The notes under the pieces: model-generated
What the model saw: only the letters and a program-made list of their open reading frames with translations
Databases searched by the model: none
Told to the model about the DNA's origin: nothing
Position numbers and translations under genes: made by a program
Assembly (NCBI GenBank): GCA_041649955.1
Contig: JBAZMD010000003.1
Coordinates: 877-64,876, forward strand
Length of the DNA: 64,000 nucleotides
Reading direction: 5' to 3'
From: Patescibacteria group bacterium
GTDB taxonomy: Bacteria; Patescibacteriota; Patescibacteriia; UBA2591; JAQUPP01
In this document: positions 10,103 to 64,000 of the stretch, piece by piece
How the letters are laid out: every line of letters begins with the position of its first letter
How positions within the stretch are numbered: position 1 is the first letter of the stretch

Positions 10103-10233
10103 TAAGAGTACGTTGACAATTTAGATATTAGAAGCCTATTAATCTAAAAACATTAGTCTATTCAAACGCAAATCAAAGCGGGTAGCTAATCTGTTTCTTA
10201 ATTATAAATTTTGGATCAAATAATCTCTTTTAA

Positions 10234-11750
<1,517 letters not shown>

Positions 11751-11949: not shown

Positions 11950-12112
11950 GGGGTTGACCCCCATACCTGAACGGCGATAAAATACTCAGTAACGTATTTT
12001 TAAATTTTTTTAAAAATAGAAATAAATTTTATAATTTAAAACAGATTAATCAAATAAAATGAACAATTTCTCGCATTTTAAAAATATATCGCCGTTTGGT
12101 GCGGGGGTTGAC
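11950..12112. repeat. MITE-like inverted-repeat element, family A (termini GGGGTTGACCCCCATACCTGAACGGCGAT / ATCGCCGTTTGGTGCGGGGGTTGAC, AT-rich core)
   Basis: Perfect/near-perfect 25-bp terminal inverted repeats in 16S-tRNA-Ile spacer. Confidence 0.6.
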
Positions 12113-19004: not shown

Positions 19005-19856
19005 TTACAGAGATTTTTTATAGACTTCCATAATTTCTCTCAACCGTTTTTCGTCAATGGCTGGCATTTCTATTCCCAAATTTTTGGCTTTTTGATTGGA
19101 TAAAACGCAATTGCTTCGTTTAGCGCTGGTAATATTATAAAGTTCATTCAAAGAAATTAATTCATATTGATGACTTGGATTGACTATTTCTTGATAGGCT
19201 TTGAGCATTTGTTCGTGGGTCAAATAATTGTCATTCACTAAATTTAAAATGCCAATCGGACGGATTTCGGCCAATTTAACCAAGGCCGGAAACATATCTT
19301 CAATTAAAGTCACGGAATTAGGTAAAGAAATAACTTTTTTATAAGAAATTATTTTATTAAGCAGATTGCGCGGATGAGAATGCATGGAAATCGGCATTCT
19401 GATTCTAAGTTGGAGAACGGGTAATTCTTTAAGCGCCATTTGCATCGCGACTCTCATTTGGGAATAAAAACTGCCGAAAAAATTCGGTTCATCTTCTTCG
19501 CTAAAAGGTGTTTCCGGCGTGCCGGAATAAATACAACCCGAAGCGATTTGGATCATAAAGCTTGACGCTTCCAGAGCGGCCAAAGCGACGTTAATCGCTC
19601 CCGCCACATTGACCGCCACAGTTTCTTGTTTATGAGTTTCACACCAATCAATATTCGGATAAGCTCTGACGCCGGCAAAATTAATCACCACATCAGGCTT
19701 GGTTTCCTGAAATTTTTTCTTTAAAGCCGGCAAATCGGTAATATCAATTCTTTCGCTGAAAACTTCAAAATTATTTTGTTTCAAATATTCCACGAATTTT
19801 CCGCCCATAAATCCGCTTGCCCCCAAAATATAAAAATTTGGTTTTTTATTTTCCAT
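19005..19856 (-). CDS. NAD(P)-dependent epimerase/dehydratase family protein (RmlD/dTDP-4-dehydrorhamnose reductase-like)
   Basis: N-terminal Rossmann 'ILGASGFMGGKF', short-chain dehydrogenase/epimerase architecture. Confidence 0.65.
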   Translation of the reverse strand: MENKKPNFYILGASGFMGGKFVEYLKQNNFEVFSERIDITDLPALKKKFQETKPDVVINFAGVRAYPNIDWCETHKQETVAVNVAGAINVALAALEASSFMIQIASGCIYSGTPETPFSEEDEPNFFGSFYSQMRVAMQMALKELPVLQLRIRMPISMHSHPRNLLNKIISYKKVISLPNSVTLIEDMFPALVKLAEIRPIGILNLVNDNYLTHEQMLKAYQEIVNPSHQYELISLNELYNITSAKRSNCVLSNQKAKNLGIEMPAIDEKRLREIMEVYKKSL

Positions 19857-19863
19857 ATTTGCT

Positions 19864-20005
19864 ATTATACCTATTTAAAATTTATTGGCAATCTTATAAT
19901 TTATTATCGGTATACTCATTTATACACAACAAAAGCATTGACAAAAAGCGGGGGGGGGTAAACTATAAGTAAGGTTAAAAATTAATTATTAACTTAATTT
20001 TTTTT
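19864..20005 (+). promoter_or_regulatory. Repeated upstream region copy 1: TTGACA-(19 nt incl. G9 tract)-TATAAG promoter-like + conserved 5' leader
   Basis: ~75 bp identical to 21120-21192 except G-tract length (9 G at 19950-19958); TTGACA at 19939-19944, TATAAG at 19964-19969. Confidence 0.55.
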
Positions 20006-20017
20006 CTCGAAGTTAGC

Positions 20018-20833
20018 TTGCGCTATATAAGAGAAGAAATGAAAACTATGTCAGAAAAAAAAGAAGGTCAGGTGCCACATCAAGAGCACGAAAAAGTAAT
20101 TGAGCAACAAGAAAAAACGATAGAAGAAATGAAAAAAGTATTAGCTGAAAAATTTCCTTTACATTATTATACTGTTTCGAAAAATGGAAAATTTTTTGGT
20201 GGTAATGCTCAATCTGGAGAGGATATTTTACAGGAGAATCCAAATCACGCTTATCACTTTAATAAAGAAAATGCTGAAAATTTTGTAAATTTAGATAAGG
20301 ATTATAAAATTCAAGAGATTGACAATGGAGAAACAGGTATTGATAGTATAATTTTTTGTAAGAAGATTTGTGGCATTCCTATGACTGAAAAAGAGAAAGA
20401 AACCCATGAAAAATATAGGGGCTTATCAAAAGAAATAGAGCGATGGGCAGAAGAGATGGAGATAGAATTGAAGAAAGCTATTACGTCAAATAAAGATCTT
20501 CATTACGAATACAGTTACGAAGAATTAGCAGGTTTTCCAGGAGATAAGTATAAGGAAGGAGACCCCGCTTACAAAGGAGTACACAAAAATAGTATTCAAG
20601 TTCGTCCTTTTGATGTTGAAAACAATTCAATACAGATTTATTTCGCGCCTCATGTTAATTATAAGACAGCAGCCGAAGGAGAACACAAATTAGTTAGCGT
20701 TACTGCCATTGAGATAGATCAAAAGAGATTTATAATAGAATATATTAAAAATACACCATTTTACAAAAAATTTAAGCCAACTATTATTTTAGACCAGCCA
20801 TCTGGATTCAAAGAGATTGTTACACCGGAATAG
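20018..20833 (+). CDS. Hypothetical protein (start possibly Met at 20039)
   Basis: ORF only; hydrophilic, no recognisable domain, no signal peptide. Confidence 0.45.
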   Translation: MRYIREEMKTMSEKKEGQVPHQEHEKVIEQQEKTIEEMKKVLAEKFPLHYYTVSKNGKFFGGNAQSGEDILQENPNHAYHFNKENAENFVNLDKDYKIQEIDNGETGIDSIIFCKKICGIPMTEKEKETHEKYRGLSKEIERWAEEMEIELKKAITSNKDLHYEYSYEELAGFPGDKYKEGDPAYKGVHKNSIQVRPFDVENNSIQIYFAPHVNYKTAAEGEHKLVSVTAIEIDQKRFIIEYIKNTPFYKKFKPTIILDQPSGFKEIVTPE

Positions 20834-21001
20834 AATAGTAGTGATTTGATTGTGTAACGAGTATTATCTTTGTTTAAATCTGAGATGTAAATATACCAAT
20901 CTTATCCCTGAATTATGGTTTTAATGTCATTATTTATGATACGAAGTCAAAAAATCTTGTGAATTCAAATATAATCCCATCTCTATTCAAGAAGAGTCAA
21001 T

Positions 21002-21033
21002 AAAAAATAAGGGTTTAAACCCTTATTTTTTAT
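21002..21033 (+). terminator. Rho-independent terminator
   Basis: aaaaaataagggtttaaacccttatttttt hairpin + T-run. Confidence 0.65.
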
Positions 21034-21192
21034 TATACCTATCTGAAATTCGTTGGCAATCTTATAATTTATTCTCTGTGTACTCATTTTGTACGTATAG
21101 ACATCTTGATTTATCAATAACAAAAGCATTGACAAAAAGCGGGGGGGGTAAACTATAAGTAAGGTTAAAAATTAATTATTAACTTAATTTTT
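21033..21192 (+). promoter_or_regulatory. Repeated upstream region copy 2: TTGACA-(18 nt incl. G8 tract)-TATAAG
   Basis: G8 at 21141-21148; otherwise identical 75-bp core to copy 1; contains a 24-bp insertion relative to copy 1 in the 5' half. Confidence 0.55.
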
Positions 21193-21233
21193 CCGAAATT
21201 GACTTAGTCATATAAGGAAAAATAGAAAAAATT

Positions 21234-21962
21234 ATGCCAGAAAAAAATAGAGGATTTAATCCTGACACTTCACAAAATAAAGGAATAAAATCTCAAAATA
21301 TAGAGCTCTACGATAAAGAAGGAAGAGTGCAAGACCCTGAAATTGCGCAGGTAATGGCTAAGATTGAGAAACCTTATCGAGAGCAGAAACGATGGGGAGT
21401 ATTTGGTCCGTCTAAGAAAACAATAGAAAAAGGAGAACAGCTTGCTGAAGAGAGAGGAGAGGAATCTTTAGAAGGGCGGAAAGATCATTTACGAAGGGAA
21501 ATAATAGATACTATAAACTATCTATTGCATAAAAAGGGAACAGAACGCAGTATTAGTTATACAGCAAAAGGAGTACACCAATTTGGAGGTCCATGGAGCA
21601 AGATGGTACAAAATACAGAGCATAAGTTGGATTTAGATATAGCAGACGGAATATCAATAAATTACACTCTAATTGGCGGTGGTTTTGCACCAGACGGCCT
21701 TTTAATGAATGGACATAGTTTAGATATTGACAGGCTTAGTTATGATGAAAGAAAAACACTATTAAAGGCATTAAAGGAAACGGCAGAGCCATACAAAGTT
21801 TCCGATAGAGAGAGAAGTTTAAAAAAGGAAAATTCAAGGATTCTGTCAGACGAGAAAGTAAAAGGAAAACAGGAATCAGAACATAAGATCGCAGCAGAAG
21901 GAGAATCCAAGGTTGCAGAGTTGTTAAAAGAATTAGCAAAAAAATATAAAGAGAAAAATTAG
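21234..21962 (+). CDS. Hypothetical protein
   Basis: ORF only; hydrophilic, Lys/Glu-rich C-terminus; unrelated in sequence to 20018-20833 product. Confidence 0.45.
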   Translation: MPEKNRGFNPDTSQNKGIKSQNIELYDKEGRVQDPEIAQVMAKIEKPYREQKRWGVFGPSKKTIEKGEQLAEERGEESLEGRKDHLRREIIDTINYLLHKKGTERSISYTAKGVHQFGGPWSKMVQNTEHKLDLDIADGISINYTLIGGGFAPDGLLMNGHSLDIDRLSYDERKTLLKALKETAEPYKVSDRERSLKKENSRILSDEKVKGKQESEHKIAAEGESKVAELLKELAKKYKEKN

Positions 21963-22127
21963 TAAGATTCTGGTAAATAAATTTTTAAGAGGAATTAGAA
22001 ACAGCACAAATACCGAAGTTATTTTAACTTCGGTATTTGAATTTAAAAATTAACTAAAGTCAAATTCGGGACTGTTATCAAGCAGTCCCTCTTTTCTTTT
22101 TTTAAAAAAGCGTTATAATAATCATAT

Positions 22128-23459
22128 ATGGCAAAAGAACTAACAAAAATGGATAAAATAATTTCGTTGTGCAAACGCCGAGGATTTATATTCCCCGGTT
22201 CTGAAATATACGGCGGATTGGCCAATTCTTGGGATTTTGGCCCTCTTGGCGTTGAATTGAAAAATAATATCAAACGAGCTTGGTGGAAAGAAATAGTCCA
22301 AAAAAGAGATGACGTGGTGGGATTGGACAGCTCCATTTTAACGCCTAAAATTGTTTGGGAAGCATCAGGACATTTGGAAAATTTTACCGATCCTTTGGTG
22401 GAATGCAAAAAATGCCATCAGAGATTCAGATCTGACAAAATTGAAGGCAAAAAATGCCCGGATTGCGGCGGCGAACTTACCGAAGGCAAGAAATTCAATC
22501 TCTTGATGAAAACTCATTTAGGCGCGGTTGAAGGCTCTCAAGACGAGGCCTATATGCGCGGCGAAACTTGCCAAGGAATTTATTTGAATTATTTGAATGT
22601 TAAAGAATCAATGAGAAAAAAATTGCCGTTTGGCGTTGCTCAAGTCGGAAAGGCATTTAGAAATGAAATAACGCCCGGGAATTTTATTTTCAGAACGCGC
22701 GAATTTGAACAAATGGAAATGCAATATTTTGTTTCGCCCAAAGATGCGAATGAATATTATCAAGAATGGAAAGATTGGACTTTTGATTGGTATAAAAATT
22801 TGGTTTATCGTCCGGAAAATTTGCGCTTGCGCCAGCATGAAAAAGACGAATTGGCGCATTATGCCAAAGAGGCATGGGACGTAGAATACAAAACGCCGTT
22901 TGACGATTGGAGCGAATTCGCAGGTATCCATAATCGCGGAGATTGGGATTTATCGCGGCATGGGAAATACAGTGGCACGGACATGAATTACACAGATGAA
23001 GAAACTAAAGAAAAATTTATTCCTTATGTTGACGAAGTTTCCATGGGTGCGGACAGGGCGGTGTTATTATTCTTAATTGACGCTTATGACGAAGTTGAAA
23101 CCAGATCCGGAGGTGAAAATGCGGTTCATGAAACGGAAATAGTTTTGCGTCTTCACAAAAATTTAGCCCCGATCAAAGTGGCGATTTTACCATTATCCAA
23201 AAAAGAAGAATTGTCTCAACCGGCCAAGGAAATTTATCACGATTTGCAAAAATATTTTATGTGCCAATATGACGAAACGGCTTCCATCGGAAAACGTTAT
23301 CGCCGCCAAGATGAAATCGGCACGCCTTATTGCGTAACTGTTGATTTTGAAAGTTTGGAAGACAAAAAAGTGACTGTCCGCGACCGAGATACCATGAAAC
23401 AAGAAAGAATTTTAATTTCCGAATTAACCGGTTGGTTAAAAGATAAATTAGAAAATTAA
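22128..23459 (+). CDS. glyQS: Glycine--tRNA ligase (alpha2 dimeric type)
   Basis: 'FIFPGSEIYGGLANSWDFGPLGVELKNNIK', class II aaRS motifs, Zn-knuckle 'CKKCHQRF...CPDCGG'. Confidence 0.9.
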   Translation: MAKELTKMDKIISLCKRRGFIFPGSEIYGGLANSWDFGPLGVELKNNIKRAWWKEIVQKRDDVVGLDSSILTPKIVWEASGHLENFTDPLVECKKCHQRFRSDKIEGKKCPDCGGELTEGKKFNLLMKTHLGAVEGSQDEAYMRGETCQGIYLNYLNVKESMRKKLPFGVAQVGKAFRNEITPGNFIFRTREFEQMEMQYFVSPKDANEYYQEWKDWTFDWYKNLVYRPENLRLRQHEKDELAHYAKEAWDVEYKTPFDDWSEFAGIHNRGDWDLSRHGKYSGTDMNYTDEETKEKFIPYVDEVSMGADRAVLLFLIDAYDEVETRSGGENAVHETEIVLRLHKNLAPIKVAILPLSKKEELSQPAKEIYHDLQKYFMCQYDETASIGKRYRRQDEIGTPYCVTVDFESLEDKKVTVRDRDTMKQERILISELTGWLKDKLEN

Positions 23460-29118: not shown

Positions 29119-29245
29119 GCAAGCCCCCACACCAAACTTGTCGTTAATCTTACGAACAAGAAGGTATAAAGGCAAAGCCGCTTCGCTTTTATAATTTTGT
29201 ATAATAGAACTTCTGCGTTGAGTTGTGGTGTGGGGGCAAGCCCCC
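29119..29245. repeat. MITE-like element family A (termini GCAAGCCCCCACACCAAAC / GTTGTGGTGTGGGGGCAAGCCCCC)
   Basis: Terminal inverted repeats seen directly; 20 bp upstream of tRNA-Asp 5' end. Confidence 0.6.
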
Positions 29246-36383: not shown

Positions 36384-36616
36384 TTTATCCCCCTTTCTTC
36401 AAAATACCTAATCACGCTGCCTACTGTTGTAAGTTTGCCTTCTTCTTCATCTGGAATTTTTATATTGAACTTTCTTTCAAAAGCCAAGAATAATTCCAGA
36501 ATATTCAGAGAATCAGCCCCAAGGTCATCTATAAAACGAGCCGAATCCACAACTTGTTCCTTGTTGACCCTAAGTGTCTTCACAATAATTTTTATTACTT
36601 CTTTTCTTATATCCAT
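36380..36616 (-). CDS. Acyl carrier protein (canonical DSL Ser present)
   Basis: 'DDLGADSLNILEL' phosphopantetheine attachment motif; 78 aa acidic. Confidence 0.75.
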   Translation of the reverse strand: MDIRKEVIKIIVKTLRVNKEQVVDSARFIDDLGADSLNILELFLAFERKFNIKIPDEEEGKLTTVGSVIRYFEERGIK

Positions 36617-36633
36617 TATTCCTCCTATTTTTT

Positions 36634-36903
36634 TTAACTATGATATGCCTCTACTTCTTCTACGACATGTTCAGCTAAACTTTCTATAGTATAACTATCA
36701 CGTTTATCCACTTCCATTGTGAGATCCATCCCAATATCATATTTTTCTTCAAGATAACAAAATATAAAAACGCAATCTACATCATTTAATCCTAAGTCAT
36801 CTACCAGTCGTGGATTATTCAGTATTTTTTCTTTCGGAATCGGGAAATTATTGGAAATGAATTTTTTAATTTCTTCTTTGATTTCTTCTATACTTATTTC
36901 CAT
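36634..36903 (-). CDS. ACP-like protein with Ser->Asn at attachment site
   Basis: 'VDDLGLNDVDCVFI' in place of DSL; ACP-sized, acidic. Confidence 0.55.
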   Translation of the reverse strand: MEISIEEIKEEIKKFISNNFPIPKEKILNNPRLVDDLGLNDVDCVFIFCYLEEKYDIGMDLTMEVDKRDSYTIESLAEHVVEEVEAYHS

Positions 36904-37184
36904 TTTATCCCCCTTTTTTCAAGATATTTGATTACACTGCCCACTGTGGTTAGTTTCTCAGCTTCTTCTTCTGTAATTTCTATGTTGAATTTTGTTTCTA
37001 AATCAAAAATAAAATCAATCATATCCATATCATTTCCGCCAAGATCATCAATAAAACGGGATGAATCTGTAATCTCTGTTTCTTCCACTCCAAATTTATC
37101 CATAGTTAACTTTATTACTTCTTCTCTTATATTCATTATTCCTCTCCTTTTTAAGGTACTGCGTTTCGCCAAATCTATATCCAC
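36894..37184 (-). CDS. ACP-like protein paralog of 36380-36616 with Ser->Asn (true start likely internal Met 'MNIREEV' ~37135)
   Basis: 'SSRFIDDLGGNDMDMIDFIFDLETKFNIEITEEEAEKLTTVGSVIKYLEKRGIK' vs 'SARFIDDLGADSLNILELFLAFERKFNIKIPDEEEGKLTTVGSVIRYFEERGIK'. Confidence 0.55.
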   Translation of the reverse strand: MDIDLAKRSTLKRRGIMNIREEVIKLTMDKFGVEETEITDSSRFIDDLGGNDMDMIDFIFDLETKFNIEITEEEAEKLTTVGSVIKYLEKRGIKWK

Positions 37185-37220: not shown

Positions 37221-37387
37221 TCGTCAACCCCCACACCAAACGGCGATTTGTATTTTTTTAAATACGAAATTATTTAATTCTGTATTTAAGATTACTTATT
37301 TATTTGTCTAAAATTTATCTTATTTCGAAAATCCAAAAAATACAAAAATTGAGCATTTATCGCCATTCTGGTGTGGGGGTCAAGCCC
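37221..37387. repeat. MITE-like element family A (termini CGTCAACCCCCACACCAAACGGCGAT / ATCGCCATTCTGGTGTGGGGGTCAAGCCC)
   Basis: Near-perfect 26-bp TIRs, AT-rich ~110-bp core, between ACP-like operon and ileS. Confidence 0.6.
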
Positions 37388-46242: not shown

Positions 46243-47781
46243 TTAATATATTTTAGTCAAATCAATTCCAGTGTAATAATATTTTAAAATTTGAGAAAAA
46301 TTTGCGCCTTGATTGGCGGCGACGATCGCGCTGCGTTGAGGCATACCCACGCCGTGTCCCAATAAAGTTTTTCCTGCCCCGGGCGGATCTGTTTTGGAAA
46401 CCAAATAAGCTACTGGCGCCGCGGTCATTGCCGCTTCAATAGATGAACGGGTTCGCCCGTCGCTTTGAGCGAAATAATAAGCGGAAATCGGATTATTTTG
46501 ATAAGTTGCCACGACACCTTGCGTCGCGGTTAAAGCGGTTAAAGTATTGGTCATTCTTAATTCGCGTTGATAACCTCGGTAAACCTGATCTGCCTGAGTG
46601 GATCGCACAGTAAATAATGAATCTCCGTCCGGTGTATTGGTATATTTGGGACTGATATATCTGGAGGTGGCATAAGTTCTGGCGGCAATTGCTTGAGCTT
46701 TTAAAAATTCTATCGGAGAAGAATCTCCCGCTTCACCCAATCCTTTTAAATAATCTTCCATCGGCAATTGGTTGATTAACCAAAGCCGTTGAGTTGAGGC
46801 ATTATATTGTATCTCCATATCACCTCGAAATTCATTATCATTTTCTCCGCCATCCCAGAATGGTCCGTTTTGCCAACTTTGAATTTTAAAAATTGTTGAA
46901 TCATCTCCTTTAAATTTCACAAAAGAATCCAGCATCATTAATCTTTTTCCTTTGTCATCAAGAATAAAATATCGTTTAAGTTTAAAATCAAAATCAACTT
47001 CCAAAATTCCGCCATCACTGACGCGAATTAAAAGTTTATTATTTTGATCAAGAAGTTGGTAGGCTTTTTTATCAAGAGTTAAAATTTTAAAAGGCAAATA
47101 ATCTTTTTTTTCTTTTTCTTCTAAATAAAGTAAGCCGACTCTTATATCTGGCCCTTCAGATGTGCATTGAAAAAGAGGCTGAGAAGCAATGGTTATATCT
47201 GACGGAATGCTTTGCCAAAAAGTTGTTCCTGTTGTCGGTGTCGGTGAGGGCGTTGGAGTCGGTGTTGGTGTGGGCGTTGGCACGGGAGTTGGAGCAGGAG
47301 ATACGGATGAAGAACCGGAAATTACTTTTAAAGCAATTTCAATTTCTCCGCCAGGAATTAAAGTATTGCCGGCAAAAAGATTTAATTTTTCCCAATATAA
47401 ACCGGGCTGGCTCGGAGCCAAAAGAGTAAAACTGAAAACTATTTCTCCCTGAGGATCAATTGTTGAAGCGGAATTAATTCGGTTTGGCGCGTTATTGTCA
47501 TACCAAGTTGGATGGTAGAATTTTCCTTTCATTCCGGAGACAGTTCGCAAAGTTAAAGCTTGAGTGCCGGTGCCGCTCCAATACATTTGGCCTGTATTTT
47601 TAAATTTAACCCAATAATTTGCGATTCCGCCAATAGTTACTTCCGGTATGCCAGCTGAACTTTGTTCTAATCTTTGGGCTTGATAATCTGATTGAGCGAA
47701 AGTTTTATTTGGGAAAGCCAAAGACAAGGCCGGTAACAGCCCGAAAATCAAAATAATTTTTGAATAAAAAATCTTTCGCAT
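46243..47781 (-). CDS. SpoIID/LytB domain protein with Pro/Thr-rich linker
   Basis: 'FLKAQAIAARTYATSRY', 'DQVYRGYQRE'; linker 'PAPTPVPTPTPTPTPTPSPTPT'; N-terminal signal peptide. Confidence 0.75.
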   Translation of the reverse strand: MRKIFYSKIILIFGLLPALSLAFPNKTFAQSDYQAQRLEQSSAGIPEVTIGGIANYWVKFKNTGQMYWSGTGTQALTLRTVSGMKGKFYHPTWYDNNAPNRINSASTIDPQGEIVFSFTLLAPSQPGLYWEKLNLFAGNTLIPGGEIEIALKVISGSSSVSPAPTPVPTPTPTPTPTPSPTPTTGTTFWQSIPSDITIASQPLFQCTSEGPDIRVGLLYLEEKEKKDYLPFKILTLDKKAYQLLDQNNKLLIRVSDGGILEVDFDFKLKRYFILDDKGKRLMMLDSFVKFKGDDSTIFKIQSWQNGPFWDGGENDNEFRGDMEIQYNASTQRLWLINQLPMEDYLKGLGEAGDSSPIEFLKAQAIAARTYATSRYISPKYTNTPDGDSLFTVRSTQADQVYRGYQRELRMTNTLTALTATQGVVATYQNNPISAYYFAQSDGRTRSSIEAAMTAAPVAYLVSKTDPPGAGKTLLGHGVGMPQRSAIVAANQGANFSQILKYYYTGIDLTKIY

Positions 47782-47880
47782 ATCGTATATTCTAACAAAA
47801 AACTAAAATTAGTCAATCCCGTATCTTTTGATAGCAGAGCAATTGCCAAATTGTTATTTTTTGATATAATTTAATTAAAT

Positions 47881-49302
47881 ATGAGTTTAACCAGTTTGGT
47901 CAGTAAAAATACGTTTGTCCATTTAGTCGGCAAAATAATCAGTCTTTTTCTGAGTCTGATTATTTTCAGTATGATTACTCACTATTTGGGCACGGAAGGA
48001 TTTGGTCAATTCACGACCGTGACTTCATTCCTTCAAGTTTTTGCCATTTTTGCCAATCTTGGTTTATATTTGGTTTTTATTCAAATACTTTCCGCGCCTA
48101 AAACAGACGAAAAAAAAGTGATCAGCGATTTTTTCAGTTTTCGCTTAATTTCCAGTATTGTTCTTTTATTCATTGCTCCGTTGATTGCTCTATCGATTCC
48201 TCAATATTCCGGTTTGATAAAAATCGGAATATTTATTACTGTTTTCAGTTATATTTTCACTTCTTTGAGTCAGTTATTGACCGGTTTTTTTCAAACTAAA
48301 ATGCAAATTAAAAAAGTGGTTTTTGCCGAAATTGCCGGCCGCTTGGTTTTATTGATTTTGACCGAATCGGCTATTTTGTTAAAAACGCATTTGATCGGAA
48401 TTTTAGTCGCTCTTATTTTTTCCAGCTTGGTTGAATTTTATGTTCTTTACCGCTTTTTGGGACAGCAAATCAAAATATCTTTATTGCCTGATTTTCATGC
48501 CCATTTGAATATTTTCAAAAAATCTTGGCCGGTCGCTCTTTCAATGATTTTGACAACAGTTTATTTCAAGGGCGATACGATTATTCTTTCTTTATTTCAA
48601 TCACAGAATGATGTCGGTATTTACGGCGCGTCTTATCGGATTTTGGAAACTCTGATTTTATTCCCGCCGATTTTTGTCGGGTTGATTATGCCTTATTTAA
48701 GCCGTTCTTGGGCCGAGAAAAATCTTGAATCTTTTAAAATGATTTTCCAAAAATCTTTTGATTTTTTTATGGTCATTATTTGGCCGCTCATTATCGGAAC
48801 AATGTGTTTGGCCGCGCCTTTGATGATGTTTGTTGCCGGTGCTGATTTTCTTGTTTCCGCGCCGCCGCTCAGAATTTTAATTTGGGCCACCGGTCTGATT
48901 TTCTTGGGAACTTTGTCAACTTATGCCGTGGTTGCCATAGAAAAACAAAAATTAATGCTTCCTTTTTATTTTATTTCCGCCTTGGTCGGCCTAATCGGTT
49001 ATCTTATTTTTATTCCTACATATTCTTATTATGGCGCGGCTTATATGACTATTGTCGCCGAATTATTGACCACGGCTTTGTCTTTTTGGATTATTTATAA
49101 AACAACTAAATTTTTGCCGAATTTTAAAATCGGTTCAAAATCGCTTCTGGCCAGCTTGATTATGGGATTTTTTCTGTTGATTTTAAGCGGCCAAAATTTA
49201 TTCTTCTTGATTTTCGTGGCAATAATAATATATTTCGCCGCACTTTATTTTTTAAAAACAATTTCTTCTCAAACCATTAAAGAAATTGCGAATTTGAAAT
49301 AA
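47881..49302 (+). CDS. Polysaccharide/oligosaccharide flippase (Wzx-like, MOP superfamily)
   Basis: ~14 TM, typical Wzx length and topology; TTGCCA-17-TATAAT promoter upstream. Confidence 0.7.
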   Translation: MSLTSLVSKNTFVHLVGKIISLFLSLIIFSMITHYLGTEGFGQFTTVTSFLQVFAIFANLGLYLVFIQILSAPKTDEKKVISDFFSFRLISSIVLLFIAPLIALSIPQYSGLIKIGIFITVFSYIFTSLSQLLTGFFQTKMQIKKVVFAEIAGRLVLLILTESAILLKTHLIGILVALIFSSLVEFYVLYRFLGQQIKISLLPDFHAHLNIFKKSWPVALSMILTTVYFKGDTIILSLFQSQNDVGIYGASYRILETLILFPPIFVGLIMPYLSRSWAEKNLESFKMIFQKSFDFFMVIIWPLIIGTMCLAAPLMMFVAGADFLVSAPPLRILIWATGLIFLGTLSTYAVVAIEKQKLMLPFYFISALVGLIGYLIFIPTYSYYGAAYMTIVAELLTTALSFWIIYKTTKFLPNFKIGSKSLLASLIMGFFLLILSGQNLFFLIFVAIIIYFAALYFLKTISSQTIKEIANLK

Positions 49303-49305
49303 TTT

Positions 49306-50595
49306 ATGTATATTTTTTATTTTTTGGTTTTAATTTGCACTGTTTTGCCGGCATATCAAATAAGATTTCAGATTTTTGGTTTGCCGATGACTTTATTGGA
49401 AGTAATGACTTTAATTTTATTTGTTGTTTGGCTGGTAGAAAAAATCAAAAATCAAAAATCAAAAATCAAAATTACAATTCAAAATTTAAAATTAAACAGC
49501 TGGTTCTGGATAATTGCGATTTGGTTAATAGTAGCCACCATTTCCATGTTTATTGCTCCGAACTTGCGAGAGGCAGCTGGGATTTGGAAGGCGTATTTTG
49601 TTGAGCCGATTCTTTTATTAATAGTTTTCCTTGACTTGATAAAAACAAAAAAAGATTTAAATTTAATTTTAAACGCGTTGATTTTTTCCGCTTTTTATTG
49701 TTCTGTTTGGGCGATTTGTCAAAAGATTTTTCATTTCGGCGGCATGATGAGCACTGAAGTTTGGAGCGCGCCGAAAATTTGGCGGGCGACCGGTCCGTTT
49801 CCCCAATCAAATTTTTTAGGATTGTATTTGGGCCCGATTATTGTGCTGACTTTCGGGCAAATAATCGCAAATCGTAAAAAATGTTTATGGTTTATAATTT
49901 ATAGTTTAGTGCTTATATTATCATTCGCGGCAATAATTCTGGCACGTTCTAATGGAGCGATATTGGGGGTTTTAGCCGGCTTGGTTTTTATGGGCCTTAT
50001 TTATAAATCAAGCAGAAAATGGACAACAATTTCTTTAATTATTTTATTATTAATTATCAAATTACTGCCGGTGGCGCGAAATTATGTTTGGCAAGAAGCG
50101 ACTTTTCATAATCTTTCCGGACAATTGCGGGTTAACATTTGGCAAGGCGCGATTTCTTTGATTAAAACCAATCCGATTCTTGGCGTAGGCCTAGACGGCT
50201 ATCAAAATTTAATTCCTCAATATCAAGCCAGATTTTATGACCCGATAACGCATCAATTGATTTCCGTGGAAACCCATCCTTATCCGCATAATTTATTTTT
50301 AGCTCTTTGGTGCGAACTGGGATTGGCGGGTTTGATTATTTTCTTAATTATTATTTTTCAATTTTTTAAATTTGGATTTAGGGAATTGTTTAGAAATTTG
50401 AAATTTAAAATTAGAAATTCAGACTCGGGAAAAAATAATCCAATATTAATTCTTGCGCTTTTATCATCTATGATCACAATACTAGTTCACGGAGCAGTTG
50501 ATACTCCTTATTTTAAAAATGATTTGTCAATTTTATTTTGGCTGATTATCGGCTTGACAATTTGTCTAAAATCTGATATTATCAAAGATAATTAG
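49306..50595 (+). CDS. O-antigen ligase/polymerase family membrane protein (Wzy/RfaL-like) containing (AAAAATC)4 repeat
   Basis: Multi-TM with large periplasmic loop and Wzy_C-like region; heptamer repeat at 49440-49467 within codons ~45-55. Confidence 0.6.
   Translation: MYIFYFLVLICTVLPAYQIRFQIFGLPMTLLEVMTLILFVVWLVEKIKNQKSKIKITIQNLKLNSWFWIIAIWLIVATISMFIAPNLREAAGIWKAYFVEPILLLIVFLDLIKTKKDLNLILNALIFSAFYCSVWAICQKIFHFGGMMSTEVWSAPKIWRATGPFPQSNFLGLYLGPIIVLTFGQIIANRKKCLWFIIYSLVLILSFAAIILARSNGAILGVLAGLVFMGLIYKSSRKWTTISLIILLLIIKLLPVARNYVWQEATFHNLSGQLRVNIWQGAISLIKTNPILGVGLDGYQNLIPQYQARFYDPITHQLISVETHPYPHNLFLALWCELGLAGLIIFLIIIFQFFKFGFRELFRNLKFKIRNSDSGKNNPILILALLSSMITILVHGAVDTPYFKNDLSILFWLIIGLTICLKSDIIKDN
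49440..49467 (+). repeat. Heptanucleotide tandem repeat (AAAAATC)x4 (+ partial) inside coding sequence
   Basis: Read directly: aaaaatc aaaaatc aaaaatc aaaaatc aaaatt. Confidence 0.9.
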
Positions 50596-50825: not shown

Positions 50826-50941
50826 AGTAATATCCATTGGATGTTGTAGTGTAAGGTGGTCATTGACTCAAAATCATTGATCACCTTTTTTTATTTGACA
50901 TTTGACAAATTTTTAAAATCTTTTATACTGAATAATAATAA

Positions 50942-51780: not shown

Positions 51781-51900
51781 GAGGCGTGCCTCCACACCAA
51801 ACGGGAGTGGAGAAAATAAATAATATTTTAACGGCATAATCTATAAAGGTAAATATACGGGAGATAAATATAATATCCCCGTTTGGTGTGGAGGCGTGGC
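51781..51900. repeat. MITE-like element family A (GAGGCGTGCCTCCACACCAAACGGGAG / CCCCGTTTGGTGTGGAGGCGTGGC), right terminus overlapping tRNA-Ser 5' end
   Basis: TIRs seen directly; last 10 nt = tRNA-Ser acceptor 5' strand. Confidence 0.55.
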
Positions 51901-63498: not shown

Positions 63499-64000
63499 AG
63501 TTAAGTGGTGAATTAGAAAATTAGAGTGTGTGGTGGATGCCTAGACATCAAAAGCCGATAAAGGACGTAGCAGCCTGCGATAAGCTTCGGGGAGGTGGCA
63601 AGCAACCTTTGATCCGGAGATTTCCGAATGGGGTAACCTATTTGCGCCAAAACGCAAATGGCTATGACTTTAGTTATAGCCGGGAACCTGGGGAAGTGAA
63701 ACATCTCAGTACCCAGAGGAAAATAAAGTGATAACGTATTCCCTTAGTAGTGGCGAGCGAAAAGGGAGAAGTCTAAATCTTAAGAGATCTAAGCTAGATA
63801 AGGGGTCTGTCGCAAGATGGAATCTTTTGTCCAGTAAAAGGCATTAGCGCTAAAATATCTTTTGAGAGGTTGTGAGATTGTTAATGTTTTATTCGCTATT
63901 GAATAAAGTTAGAATTTAGTTTCTTAGTCGAAAAACCTGGAAAGGTTTACCATAGAAGGTGATAGGCCTGTAGACGAAAAGATTTTAAATTCTAATAGTT
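63499..64000 (+). rRNA. rrl: 23S ribosomal RNA, 5' portion (continues beyond window)
   Basis: 'ggtggatgcctag', 'gaaggacgtag', 'gggaaccggggaactgaaacatctcagtaccc'-like 'cctggggaagtgaaacatctcagtacccagaggaaaa', 'gtagtggcgagcgaaa'. Confidence 0.85.

What the first reader, a model, noticed from the sequence alone, without database searches (positions are those of the whole stretch)
19864..21192. Duplicated promoter/leader with poly-G tract of different length (G9 vs G8) between -35 and -10, driving two unrelated hypothetical genes
A ~75-bp block, 'acaaaagcattgacaaaaagc-Gn-taaactataagtaaggttaaaaattaattattaacttaattttt', is identical upstream of genes 20018-20833 and 21234-21962 except for the homopolymeric G run: 9 G at 19950-19958 and 8 G at 21141-21148. 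The tract lies inside the spacer of a TTGACA...TATAAG promoter-like pair, giving 19-nt versus 18-nt spacing. A G-run this long is rare in this AT-rich sequence. A one-nucleotide length difference between copies is the classic signature of slipped-strand phase variation of promoter strength. The two downstream proteins are unrelated to each other, hydrophilic and of unknown function. Shared regulation suggests a common functional module, possibly host-interaction or effector-like.
Basis: partly seen in the sequence, partly recalled or inferred. Interest (0 to 1): 0.7.

Follow-up and report, generated by a model that had tools for sequence, protein, structure and literature searches.

The report
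Duplicated poly-G promoter module in Patescibacteria
Two neighbouring accessory genes of an uncultured Patescibacteria (CPR) bacterium carry the same promoter-plus-leader module, identical except for a run of 9 versus 8 G's inside the promoter; this looks like a textbook slippage-prone on/off switch, but no switching has been shown.

Summary
G9 (19950-19958) and G8 (21141-21148) are the only G/C runs of 7 or more in the 64 kb. Each sits 6 nt after a perfect TTGACA, inside a 75/74-nt block that is otherwise 100% identical.

Corrections:
- The duplicated unit is about 215-235 nt. It runs from the rmlD-side promoter through the leader, start codon and first ~7 codons.
- The identical core is flanked by diverged sequence: 86% identity upstream, 64% downstream.
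- Spacers are 15/14 nt to TAAACT or 20/19 nt to TATAAG, not 19/18. This genome's strong promoters use 16-17 nt, so both copies look weak or off.

Context:
- Gene 1 has no detectable relatives.
- Gene 2 belongs to a small uncharacterised family whose other members lack a poly-G promoter.
- Sister species hold a different gene in this rmlD/glyS slot, behind an ordinary TTGACA-16-TAATCT promoter.
- Both proteins look soluble and cytoplasmic.

A second assembly shows the same G9/G8, so no population variation was seen.

Verdict: a plausible slipped-strand contingency promoter of the porA/opc, fim or vlp type. I found no report of this for Patescibacteria. It is a new member of a known kind and is unproven. 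The "shared effector module" idea is unsupported.

The parts
19005..19856 (-). rmlD-like sugar-nucleotide reductase gene, the conserved left neighbour. It is transcribed divergently from copy 1.
   Evidence: Pfam RmlD_sub_bind E=2.4e-21. Homologues of 93-96% identity occur in sister genomes.
19857..19927 (.). Upstream part of module copy 1. It contains the ancestral minus-strand promoter TTGCCA (19891-19886)-16 nt-TATAAT (19869-19864), which ends 7 nt before the rmlD-like ATG (leaderless-type).
   Evidence: Promoter scan. The same ~44 nt are conserved in sister species L011 and L007.
19928..20002 (+). Identical core, copy 1 (75 nt). It holds the -35 TTGACA (19938-19943), AAAAGC, G9 (19950-19958), the -10 candidates TAAACT (19959-19964, spacer 15) and TATAAG (19964-19969, spacer 20), and leader hairpin 1 (19972-19978 / 19989-19995).
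   Evidence: RNA fold.
20003..20068 (+). Diverged 3' part of module copy 1. It holds leader hairpin 2 (the U-run 20000-20008 pairs with the purine-rich SD-like 20031-20039), ATG 20048 and the first ~7 codons (MSEKKEG).
   Evidence: Alignment 29/45 and 19/23 identical. Fold z=-2.3.
20048..20833 (+). Gene 1: 261 aa (264 aa if it starts at 20039). Acidic, hydrophilic protein with no detectable relatives.
   Evidence: Only a self-hit among 5.8e9 proteins. No Pfam, PHROG or PADLOC match. AF2 pLDDT 54 and no fold match. No TM segment or signal peptide.
20998..21035 (.). Perfect 17-bp-stem palindrome flanked by A- and T-runs. It is a bidirectional terminator after gene 1 and abuts copy 2.
   Evidence: (I3).
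21025..21118 (.). Upstream part of module copy 2. It is a diverged (86%) duplicate of the rmlD-side promoter (TTGCCA 21059-21054 -16- TATAAT 21037-21032) that now points into the terminator. It carries a 23-nt insertion at about 21090-21112.
21119..21192 (+). Identical core, copy 2 (74 nt). It holds the -35 TTGACA (21129-21134), G8 (21141-21148), TAAACT (21149-21154, spacer 14), TATAAG (21154-21159, spacer 19), and leader hairpin 1 (21162-21168 / 21179-21185).
21193..21254 (+). Diverged 3' part of module copy 2. It holds hairpin 2 (21187-21194 / 21216-21223, covering the AAGGA SD-like motif), ATG 21234 and the first ~7 codons (MPEKNRG).
21234..21962 (+). Gene 2: 242 aa, a basic hydrophilic protein. 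It belongs to a small uncharacterised family with a conserved N-terminal motif (YDxEGxVxDPEIAxEMAxxEKPYRE..GIF.PSK). Its first ~20 residues are an extension that homologues lack.
   Evidence: 66 representatives at E<=1e-3 among 1.84e9 proteins. Alignment A2. No Pfam match in 10 homologues. No PDB match.
22007..22089 (.). Two terminator-like hairpins after gene 2, lying before the glyS promoter and gene (22128-23459).
   Evidence: GlyRS Pfam domains are listed.

Best explanation
This is a duplicated 5' expression module. Each copy comprises a sigma-70-type promoter, a ~75-nt leader, a start codon and the first ~7 codons. The two copies sit in front of two unrelated accessory genes, in a hypervariable slot between the rmlD-like gene and glyS of a Patescibacteria bacterium.

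In each copy a poly-G run fills most of the -35/-10 spacer, so its length sets the promoter geometry. Runs of 8-9 G are intrinsically prone to slipped-strand mispairing. Each gene's transcription can therefore drift heritably and independently between weak/off and on states. That makes this a contingency (phase-variable) promoter of the porA/opc, fim or vlp type.

In the assembled consensus both copies are off-optimum: 15 and 14 nt to TAAACT. The predicted 'on' lengths would be G10-G11. If TATAAG is the true -10, they would be G5-G7. The identical first ~30 nt of the leader (hairpin 1) and a second hairpin that pairs a U-run with the SD-like purine tract probably add a shared post-initiation control.

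Shown: the anatomy, the duplication, the mosaic conservation, the 1-nt tract difference, and the lineage specificity.
Inferred: promoter activity, the identity of the -10, the dependence of expression on tract length, and high-frequency reversible switching.
For: 1. G9 and G8 are the only G/C runs of 7 or more in 64 kb. None occurs in any related locus fetched.
2. Each tract lies 6 nt after a perfect TTGACA and directly abuts TAAACT/TATAAG.
3. The genome's strong intergenic promoters are TTGACA-like with 16-17-nt spacers and TATAAT-like -10 elements. Examples are tmRNA, tRNA-Asp, the rmlD-like gene and the gene at 47881. One nucleotide of spacer should therefore matter.
4. There are 66 identical positions in the core, against 86% and 64% identity in the homologous flanks on either side. 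At 14% divergence the chance of 66 unchanged sites is about 5e-5 (my arithmetic). The core is therefore held identical by selection or gene conversion, yet the tract length differs. The tract thus mutates faster than its surroundings.
5. Sister species have TTGACA-16-TAATCT with no homopolymer at the same place. The G run is therefore an added feature, not a necessary promoter part.
6. The cargo is lineage-specific accessory genes with low GC3, which is typical of contingency loci.
7. Precedent: in the B. pertussis fim promoters, which share a conserved cassette, C7 versus C8 in fimX changes the transcript 3.8-fold (PMC1891110). The porA and opc spacer tracts are cited in PMC5084427.
8. A second slippage-type repeat lies in the same window: (AAAAATC)x4.6 inside a Wzy-like gene.
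Against: - No tract-length variation was observed. The only other full assembly of the locus (ERZ27247363; 5 substitutions in 10.7 kb) has the same G9 and G8. No read-level data were available.
- Neither observed length gives a 16-18-nt spacer with either -10 candidate, so the promoter model may be wrong or both genes may be silent.
- The products are predicted to be soluble and cytoplasmic, unlike most classical phase-variable surface proteins.
- Only two copies are known.
- Homologues of gene 2 in other genomes have no homopolymer upstream.
- The identical core could instead reflect a recent recombination event rather than selection.
Confidence: 0.45

Rival explanations
1. This is an ordinary duplicated regulatory region with an essentially fixed G run. 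The module was copied once, as promoter capture for a newly inserted gene. The 1-nt difference is a single neutral indel, and the promoters are constitutively weak or depend on an unknown activator or repressor that binds the conserved leader palindrome. There is no biologically used switching.
For: - Tract lengths are the same in two assemblies.
- Spacing is non-optimal in both copies under both -10 readings.
- A 9+8+9 A/T palindrome, AAAAATTAA-N8-TTAATTTTT, lies just downstream of the -10 and could be an operator (I1, 72).
- A G8 run is expected about once per window in dinucleotide-preserving shuffles.
Against: - The tract is the only variable position in a core that is otherwise kept identical while both flanks diverged.
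- G runs of 7 or more are absent from the rest of the window and from relatives.
- From established knowledge, G8-G9 runs slip at high rates in every bacterium tested. Complete stability would therefore be surprising.
Confidence: 0.3
2. The block is a recombination footprint. Gene 1, with its own diverged copy of the rmlD-side promoter, entered by a crossover within the core. The source would be a related strain's allele of the same slot, or a site-specific recombinase acting on the arm-8 nt-arm palindrome. The directly repeated cores are then att-like junctions, identical because of the crossover rather than selection. The G run is incidental.
For: - The slot is hypervariable. Sister species hold one unrelated 180-aa gene that matches phrog_16527, and another relative holds 65-aa and 142-aa ORFs.
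- The pattern is mosaic. The left flank of copy 1 matches the sister-species chromosome, whereas the left flank of copy 2 is a diverged version with a 23-nt insertion.
- The core contains a 9-8-9 inverted repeat.
Against: - No recombinase gene is adjacent; the neighbours are the rmlD-like gene, tRNAs and glyS.
- Homology extends well beyond the core on both sides, including the start codon region. That fits duplication of a whole regulatory module better than a short att core.
- No further copies were found in the phage or viral collections.
- This rival explains the duplication, not the G run, and it is compatible with the tract still acting as a switch.
Confidence: 0.12
3. The G9/G8 difference is a homopolymer consensus error in the assembly, and the two cores are truly identical.
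For: - Homopolymers are error-prone in sequencing, and no reads could be inspected.
- The second assembly might derive from the same reads.
Against: - Two assemblies built with different pipelines give the same 9 and 8 at the same copies.
- Short-read consensus at 8-9-nt runs is normally reliable.
Confidence: 0.05

Closest known systems
Neisseria meningitidis porA (poly-G) and opc (poly-C) promoters
   Same: A homopolymeric G/C tract lies between the -35 and -10 hexamers. One-nucleotide slippage changes the spacer length and grades transcription from none to high (van der Ende 1995 and Sarkari 1994, as cited in PMC5084427; the details are from my own knowledge).
   Different: Those are single genes for outer-membrane proteins with experimentally shown switching. 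Here two unrelated, apparently cytoplasmic proteins share the module, no switching has been shown, and the observed lengths are off-optimum.
Bordetella pertussis fim2/fim3/fimX promoters ('fim box' + C-stretch)
   Same: Several genes carry a conserved promoter cassette whose homopolymer differs in length between copies. A single base (C7 versus C8 in fimX) changes the transcript 3.8-fold (PMC1891110).
   Different: The C-stretch sets the distance between an activator (BvgA) site and the -10, and the genes are paralogous fimbrial subunits. Here the tract lies in a -35/-10 spacer, and the genes are unrelated beyond 7 codons.
Mycoplasma hyorhinis vlp gene family
   Same: Each gene has a highly conserved 5' region, comprising a promoter with a homopolymer in the -35/-10 spacer plus the first codons. 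Divergent coding bodies follow, which allows independent, combinatorial on/off expression (my own knowledge; Rosengarten & Wise 1991 is cited in PMC11868660).
   Different: That system uses poly(A) rather than poly(G). Its products are surface lipoproteins with a conserved signal peptide, in a genome-reduced pathogen. Here no signal peptide is present and there are only two copies.
Haemophilus influenzae hifA/hifB divergent promoter with TA repeats
   Same: A simple-sequence repeat lies in a divergent intergenic region (van Ham 1993, cited in PMC5084427).
   Different: There the repeat sits in the overlapping spacers of both promoters and controls both genes. Here the rmlD-side promoter (19891-19864) lies about 60 nt away from the tract and should be unaffected.

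Membership tests
SSR-in-promoter-spacer phase-variable (contingency) locus (porA/opc/vlp type) | A simple-sequence repeat long enough to be hypermutable (a homopolymer of about 7-8 or more) | tested here: met
   G9 and G8 are the only G/C runs of 7 or more in 64 kb.
SSR-in-promoter-spacer phase-variable (contingency) locus (porA/opc/vlp type) | The repeat lies between functional -35 and -10 elements, so that its length sets the spacer | tested here: inconclusive
   By sequence, a perfect TTGACA lies 6 nt upstream and TAAACT/TATAAG lie directly downstream. However, the -10 is ambiguous, the spacers are 15/14 or 20/19 nt against the genome norm of 16-17, and no transcription start has been mapped.
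SSR-in-promoter-spacer phase-variable (contingency) locus (porA/opc/vlp type) | Tract length is polymorphic within or between populations of the same strain (reversible and high-frequency) | tested here: inconclusive
   The paralogous copies differ by 1 nt inside an otherwise identical core. The one other assembly of the locus has the same G9/G8. No reads were available. The collection scans did not contain this genome.
SSR-in-promoter-spacer phase-variable (contingency) locus (porA/opc/vlp type) | Expression level changes with tract length | not testable with these tools
   This needs reporter assays or transcriptomes stratified by tract length.
Multi-gene families with a shared phase-variable 5' cassette (vlp / fim type) | Two or more genes carry a conserved promoter/5' region with independently varying repeat lengths | tested here: met
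   Two copies were found. Homology runs from the upstream promoter region into codon 7, and the tracts are 9 and 8.
MerR-type promoter (overlong 19-20-nt spacer activated by DNA distortion) | A dyad-symmetric operator inside the spacer and a MerR-family regulator gene nearby | tested here: not met
   The spacer AAAAGC-Gn-TAAAC has no dyad symmetry. The neighbours are the rmlD-like gene, tRNAs and glyS.
Reiterative-transcription control at a G run (B. subtilis pyrG type) | The G run lies at the transcription start, i.e. a -10 element ends about 7 nt upstream of it | tested here: not met
   The hexamer in that position is TTGACA itself (19938-19943), which is not a -10-like sequence.
Mobile element or cassette recombination site (MITE, integron attC, Xer/dif-type module) | Terminal inverted repeats or target duplications, a cognate recombinase, and multiple dispersed copies | tested here: not met
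   Only two tandem-oriented copies occur in the window. There are no matches in viral contigs or phage records, and no recombinase gene is adjacent. A 9-8-9 palindrome in the core leaves a weak possibility open.

The most novel reading that the evidence does not exclude
The module is a portable, slippage-tunable expression cassette: promoter with poly-G spacer, regulatory leader and first codons. An episymbiotic Patescibacteria lineage grafts it onto newly acquired or orphan genes in a hypervariable slot. Each new gene is thereby expressed stochastically in only part of the population. Together with the heptanucleotide repeat in the Wzy-like gene, this would be the first set of contingency loci described in the Candidate Phyla Radiation.
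Probability: 0.2. Interest if true: 0.6.

Novelty: new member of a known kind. Interest (0 to 1): 0.42.

Why it matters
Patescibacteria/CPR bacteria are tiny-genome episymbionts, and almost nothing is known about how they regulate genes. In the held literature I found no report of simple-sequence phase variation in this group. The nearest is an intragenic 9-mer hypervariable repeat in a Gracilibacterium (PMC6851277).

If read data confirm tract-length heterogeneity, this locus would show that CPR bacteria use the same bet-hedging trick as mucosal pathogens and mycoplasmas. It would also give a simple, testable handle (G-tract length) on two proteins of unknown function. If the tract proves stable, the finding reduces to an ordinary duplicated promoter in an accessory-gene slot.

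Tried and rejected
- **Further copies of the block.** Pattern scans of genome contigs, metagenome contigs and viral contigs with a variable gap gave only two chance hits, in an Anaerolineaceae MAG and an unrelated contig, neither with a G run. Those collections did not return the window's own locus. They therefore say nothing about the rest of this genome.
- **Homology of gene 1.** Only a self-hit was found in the 5.8e9-protein search. There was nothing in Pfam, PHROGs, PADLOC or viral contigs.
- **Structure.** Single-sequence AlphaFold models were poor, with pLDDT 54 and 44. The Foldseek search of the gene 1 model against PDB was meaningless, with best E 0.67.
- **Gene 2 family.** The profile had no match against PDB sequences. 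The hit to a 6221-aa repeat adhesin (P0133) rests on a short NGxSLDLD-like motif repeated 21 times, and I judged it uninformative.
- **Rfam.** No family matches the core. Sub-threshold hits sit only on the terminator palindrome.
- **Paralogy of genes 1 and 2.** Rejected. BLASTP gives E=0.19, and the similarity is limited to the first ~7 codons, which belong to the duplicated module.
- **A conserved gene 1-gene 2 pair.** Rejected. The neighbours of gene-2 homologues differ from case to case: a DHH-family protein, ribosomal protein genes plus GIY-YIG, or small ORFs.
- **Phage origin.** No DNA or protein match was found in the phage or viral collections.
- **MerR-type, reiterative-transcription and mobile-element readings.** All three failed their defining features (see the membership tests).
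Full report
**Source and context.** The window is a chromosomal segment of an uncultured Patescibacteria (CPR) bacterium. NCBI names the two products 'MAG: hypothetical protein WC499_01370 / WC499_01375 [Patescibacteria group bacterium]'. GC content is about 35%. The 16S and 23S rRNA genes are unlinked. The finding lies between an rmlD-like sugar-nucleotide reductase gene (19005-19856, minus strand) and glyS (22128-23459).

**Observation.** The sequence shows G9 at 19950-19958 and G8 at 21141-21148. The flanks are identical for 22 nt on the left (19928-19949 / 21119-21140) and 44 nt on the right (19959-20002 / 21149-21192). A 35-nt piece of the block occurs twice in the window and never in 100 shuffles. 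The two tracts are the only G/C runs of 7 or more in the window; otherwise there are G5 x12, G6 x2 and C5 x14. Dinucleotide-preserving shuffles yield about one overlapping G8 match per window. The run alone is therefore only modestly unusual, and its position and duplication carry the weight.

Logan contigs from SRR8542065 start exactly at the last shared 31-mer and continue into gene 1 and gene 2 respectively. An ENA contig (ERZ27247363) carries the same tandem layout. The duplication is therefore not an assembly artefact.

1. Counting from TTGACA (19938-19943 / 21129-21134), the spacer to TATAAG is 20/19 nt, not 19/18. The spacer to TAAACT, which keeps the critical A2 and T6 of a -10 element and directly abuts the G run, is 15/14 nt.
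2. The duplicated unit is far longer than 75 bp. Homology runs from just after the rmlD-like start codon (about 19853 / 21021) to codon 7 of each gene (about 20068 / 21255). The pieces are:
   - upstream part: 59/69 identical, plus a 23-nt insertion in copy 2;
   - core: 66/66 identical, apart from the tract;
   - leader 3' part: 29/45 identical;
   - start-codon region: 19/23 identical, giving MSEKKEG versus MPEKNRG.
3. This homology, together with NCBI's 261-aa product, places the start of gene 1 at ATG 20048.

**What the pieces are.** The upstream ~44 nt of copy 1 is the ancestral rmlD-side promoter (minus strand, TTGCCA-16-TATAAT, ending 7 nt before the ATG). It is conserved in two sister lineages whose RmlD-like proteins are 93-94% identical (L007, L011). 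Copy 2 retains a diverged duplicate of this promoter, which now fires into the perfect palindromic terminator after gene 1 (20998-21035). It is a passenger, which shows that copy 2 descends from a copy-1-like region.

The plus-strand part of the module has no counterpart in the sister lineages. There the plus-strand promoter is an ordinary TTGACA-16-TAATCT with no homopolymer, and it drives a single, unrelated 180-aa gene that matches phrog_16527. A third relative (96% RmlD identity; no DNA available) has 65-aa and 142-aa ORFs at that position. The rmlD/glyS junction is thus a hypervariable accessory-gene slot, and the poly-G module is specific to this lineage.

**Promoter reading.** Across the window, strong intergenic promoter matches are TTGACA-like and TATAAT-like hexamers separated by 16-17 nt. 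Examples are tmRNA (TTGACA-16-TATAAT), tRNA-Asp, the rmlD-like gene, the genes at 46243-47781 and 47881, and the site at 50902. Many of them end 7-10 nt before the start codon, which implies leaderless mRNAs.

Against this background the module is unusual in two ways. Its spacer is off-optimum at both copies under either choice of -10. It also has a ~75-nt leader. From established knowledge of sigma-70 promoters, 17 +/- 1 nt is optimal and activity falls steeply at 15 or 19 nt and beyond. Both genes would therefore be weakly expressed or silent in the consensus state. They would become active at G10-G11 (TAAACT) or G5-G7 (TATAAG).

**Leader.** From a start near 19971 / 21161, both leaders fold into the same two hairpins (z = -2.3 and -2.5). 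Hairpin 1 lies in the identical core. Hairpin 2 pairs the U-run at the end of the core with the purine-rich SD-like tract, using different sequences in the two copies (UUUUUUCUC/GAGAAGAAA versus UUUUUCC/GGAAAAA). With only two sequences this is suggestive, not proof. At the DNA level the core also contains a 9-8-9 A/T palindrome that could be an operator. No Rfam family matches.

**Mosaic conservation.** The flanks on both sides of the core have diverged (86% and 64% identity). The chance that 66 intervening sites stay identical at 14% divergence is about 5e-5 (my arithmetic). So either purifying selection or gene conversion keeps the core identical, or the core marks a recent crossover. In either case the G-tract length is the one thing that differs. 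This is direct evidence that the tract changes faster than its surroundings, but it is not evidence for rapid reversible switching.

**The genes.**
- Gene 1 has no detectable relative in a 5.8e9-protein search and no Pfam, PHROG or PADLOC match.
- Gene 2 has 66 distant relatives among 1.84e9 representatives. They share an N-terminal ~60-aa motif, YDxEGxVxDPEIAxEMAxxEKPYRE..GIF.PSK, with no Pfam or PDB match.
- The first ~20 residues of gene 2, including the 7 codons shared with gene 1, are an N-terminal extension that homologues lack. This fits a 5' module grafted onto a pre-existing gene.
- Homologues sit in varied contexts. One is next to a DHH-family gene, one lies between rplB and rpsS beside a small GIY-YIG gene, and one is in an island of small ORFs beside GIY-YIG. 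All have ordinary promoters and no homopolymer.
- Both window proteins are hydrophilic (GRAVY -0.87 and -1.03), lack TM segments and signal peptides, and have lower GC3 than the other genes (0.23 and 0.26 versus 0.32 +/- 0.05).
- AlphaFold single-sequence models were poor and gave no fold match.
- Nothing supports an effector or host-interaction role, or a functional pairing of the two genes.

**Is the tract variable?** The only other full assembly of the locus (ERZ27247363) differs from the window by 5 clustered substitutions in glyS and has the same G9 and G8. Whether it derives from independent reads is unknown. The Logan assembly breaks at the repeat. The public collection scans did not contain this genome. 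Population heterogeneity therefore remains untested.

**Comparison with known systems.** The anatomy matches spacer-type SSR phase variation:
- N. meningitidis porA (poly-G) and opc (poly-C), as cited in PMC5084427;
- the B. pertussis fim promoters, where paralogues share a cassette with C-stretches of different length and C7 versus C8 changes fimX transcript 3.8-fold (PMC1891110);
- the M. hyorhinis vlp family, which has a conserved 5' region with a poly(A) spacer and conserved first codons before divergent bodies (my own knowledge; cited in PMC11868660).

The MerR-type, reiterative-transcription and mobile-element readings each fail a defining feature (see the membership tests). Literature searches found no report of SSR phase variation in Patescibacteria/CPR. 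The nearest is an intragenic hypervariable 9-mer repeat in a Gracilibacterium (PMC6851277).

**Verdict.** The best explanation is a duplicated, slippage-tunable promoter and leader module acting as a contingency switch for two accessory genes (confidence 0.45). The main rivals are:
- a stable duplicated promoter with a neutral 1-nt indel (0.30);
- a recombination footprint of cassette insertion (0.12);
- a homopolymer consensus error (0.05).

It is a new member of a known kind, in a phylum where the kind has not been described. Interest is moderate (0.42) until reads show heterogeneity.

Noticed in passing
window 49440-49471 (inside ORF 49306-50595, +): A perfect heptanucleotide tandem repeat, (AAAAATC)x4.6, lies in the 5' part of a Wzy_C/O-antigen-ligase family gene (PF04932, E=2.8e-23), directly after a Wzx-like flippase gene (47881-49302). 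Gain or loss of one 7-nt unit would frameshift the gene. This is a second candidate slipped-strand contingency locus, in a surface-polysaccharide gene.
   Followed up: partly
window 12094-12107(+), 29124-29137(-), 29223-29236(+), 37228-37241(-), 37366-37379(+), 51789-51802(-), 51881-51894(+): The 14-mer GTTTGGTGTGGGGG (up to 2 mismatches) occurs 7 times against 0.17 expected. It often lies directly upstream of a -35 hexamer, for example before tRNA-Asp, tRNA-Ile and the ACP-like genes, and it occurs as divergent pairs 90-140 nt apart. It may be a promoter-upstream or transcription-factor site.
   Followed up: partly
window 19864-19856, 22120-22128, 47781-47790, 47870-47881 and others: Many strong promoter matches end only 7-10 nt before the start codon (the rmlD-like gene, glyS, and the genes at 46243-47781 and 47881). 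Leaderless mRNAs therefore appear common in this genome.
   Followed up: no
L007 6359-6901 (sister species, JGI Ga0376277_0001114); contig of P0003: The slot between the rmlD-like gene and glyS holds different genes in close relatives. One has a single 180-aa ORF matching phrog_16527 (E=3.5e-11), and another has 65-aa and 142-aa ORFs. The sister species also carries Lactamase_B_2 and two small GIY-YIG genes in the syntenic block that the window lacks.
   Followed up: partly
L018 3458-4445, L019 1099-2086, L021 2346-4792: Homologues of gene 2 sit next to small (81-102 aa) GIY-YIG genes. In L018 and L019 the pair is inserted between rplB and rpsS of the ribosomal protein operon. This suggests the family travels with homing-endonuclease-like elements.
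   Followed up: no
L017 277-1134: The neighbour of a gene-2 homologue is a 285-aa protein matching the PADLOC models C3a116 and DHH_CorA (E=5e-48 and 8e-40). It had no precomputed Pfam hit.
   Followed up: no
window 22535-22562: All five differences between the window and the ENA contig ERZ27247363 k141_1325385 fall within 28 nt of glyS. This looks like a short recombination or strain-variant patch rather than scattered mutations.
   Followed up: no
window 36400-37135 (-): Three tandem ORFs of about 80 aa, which look like acyl-carrier proteins by eye (no domain search was run), lie behind a GTTTGGTGTGGGGG-TTGACG-17-TTAAAT promoter. Two of them are the 174-nt repeat pair D1.
   Followed up: no
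window 10228-11750 and 63510-64000: The 16S and 23S rRNA genes are about 52 kb apart, i.e. unlinked.
   Followed up: no
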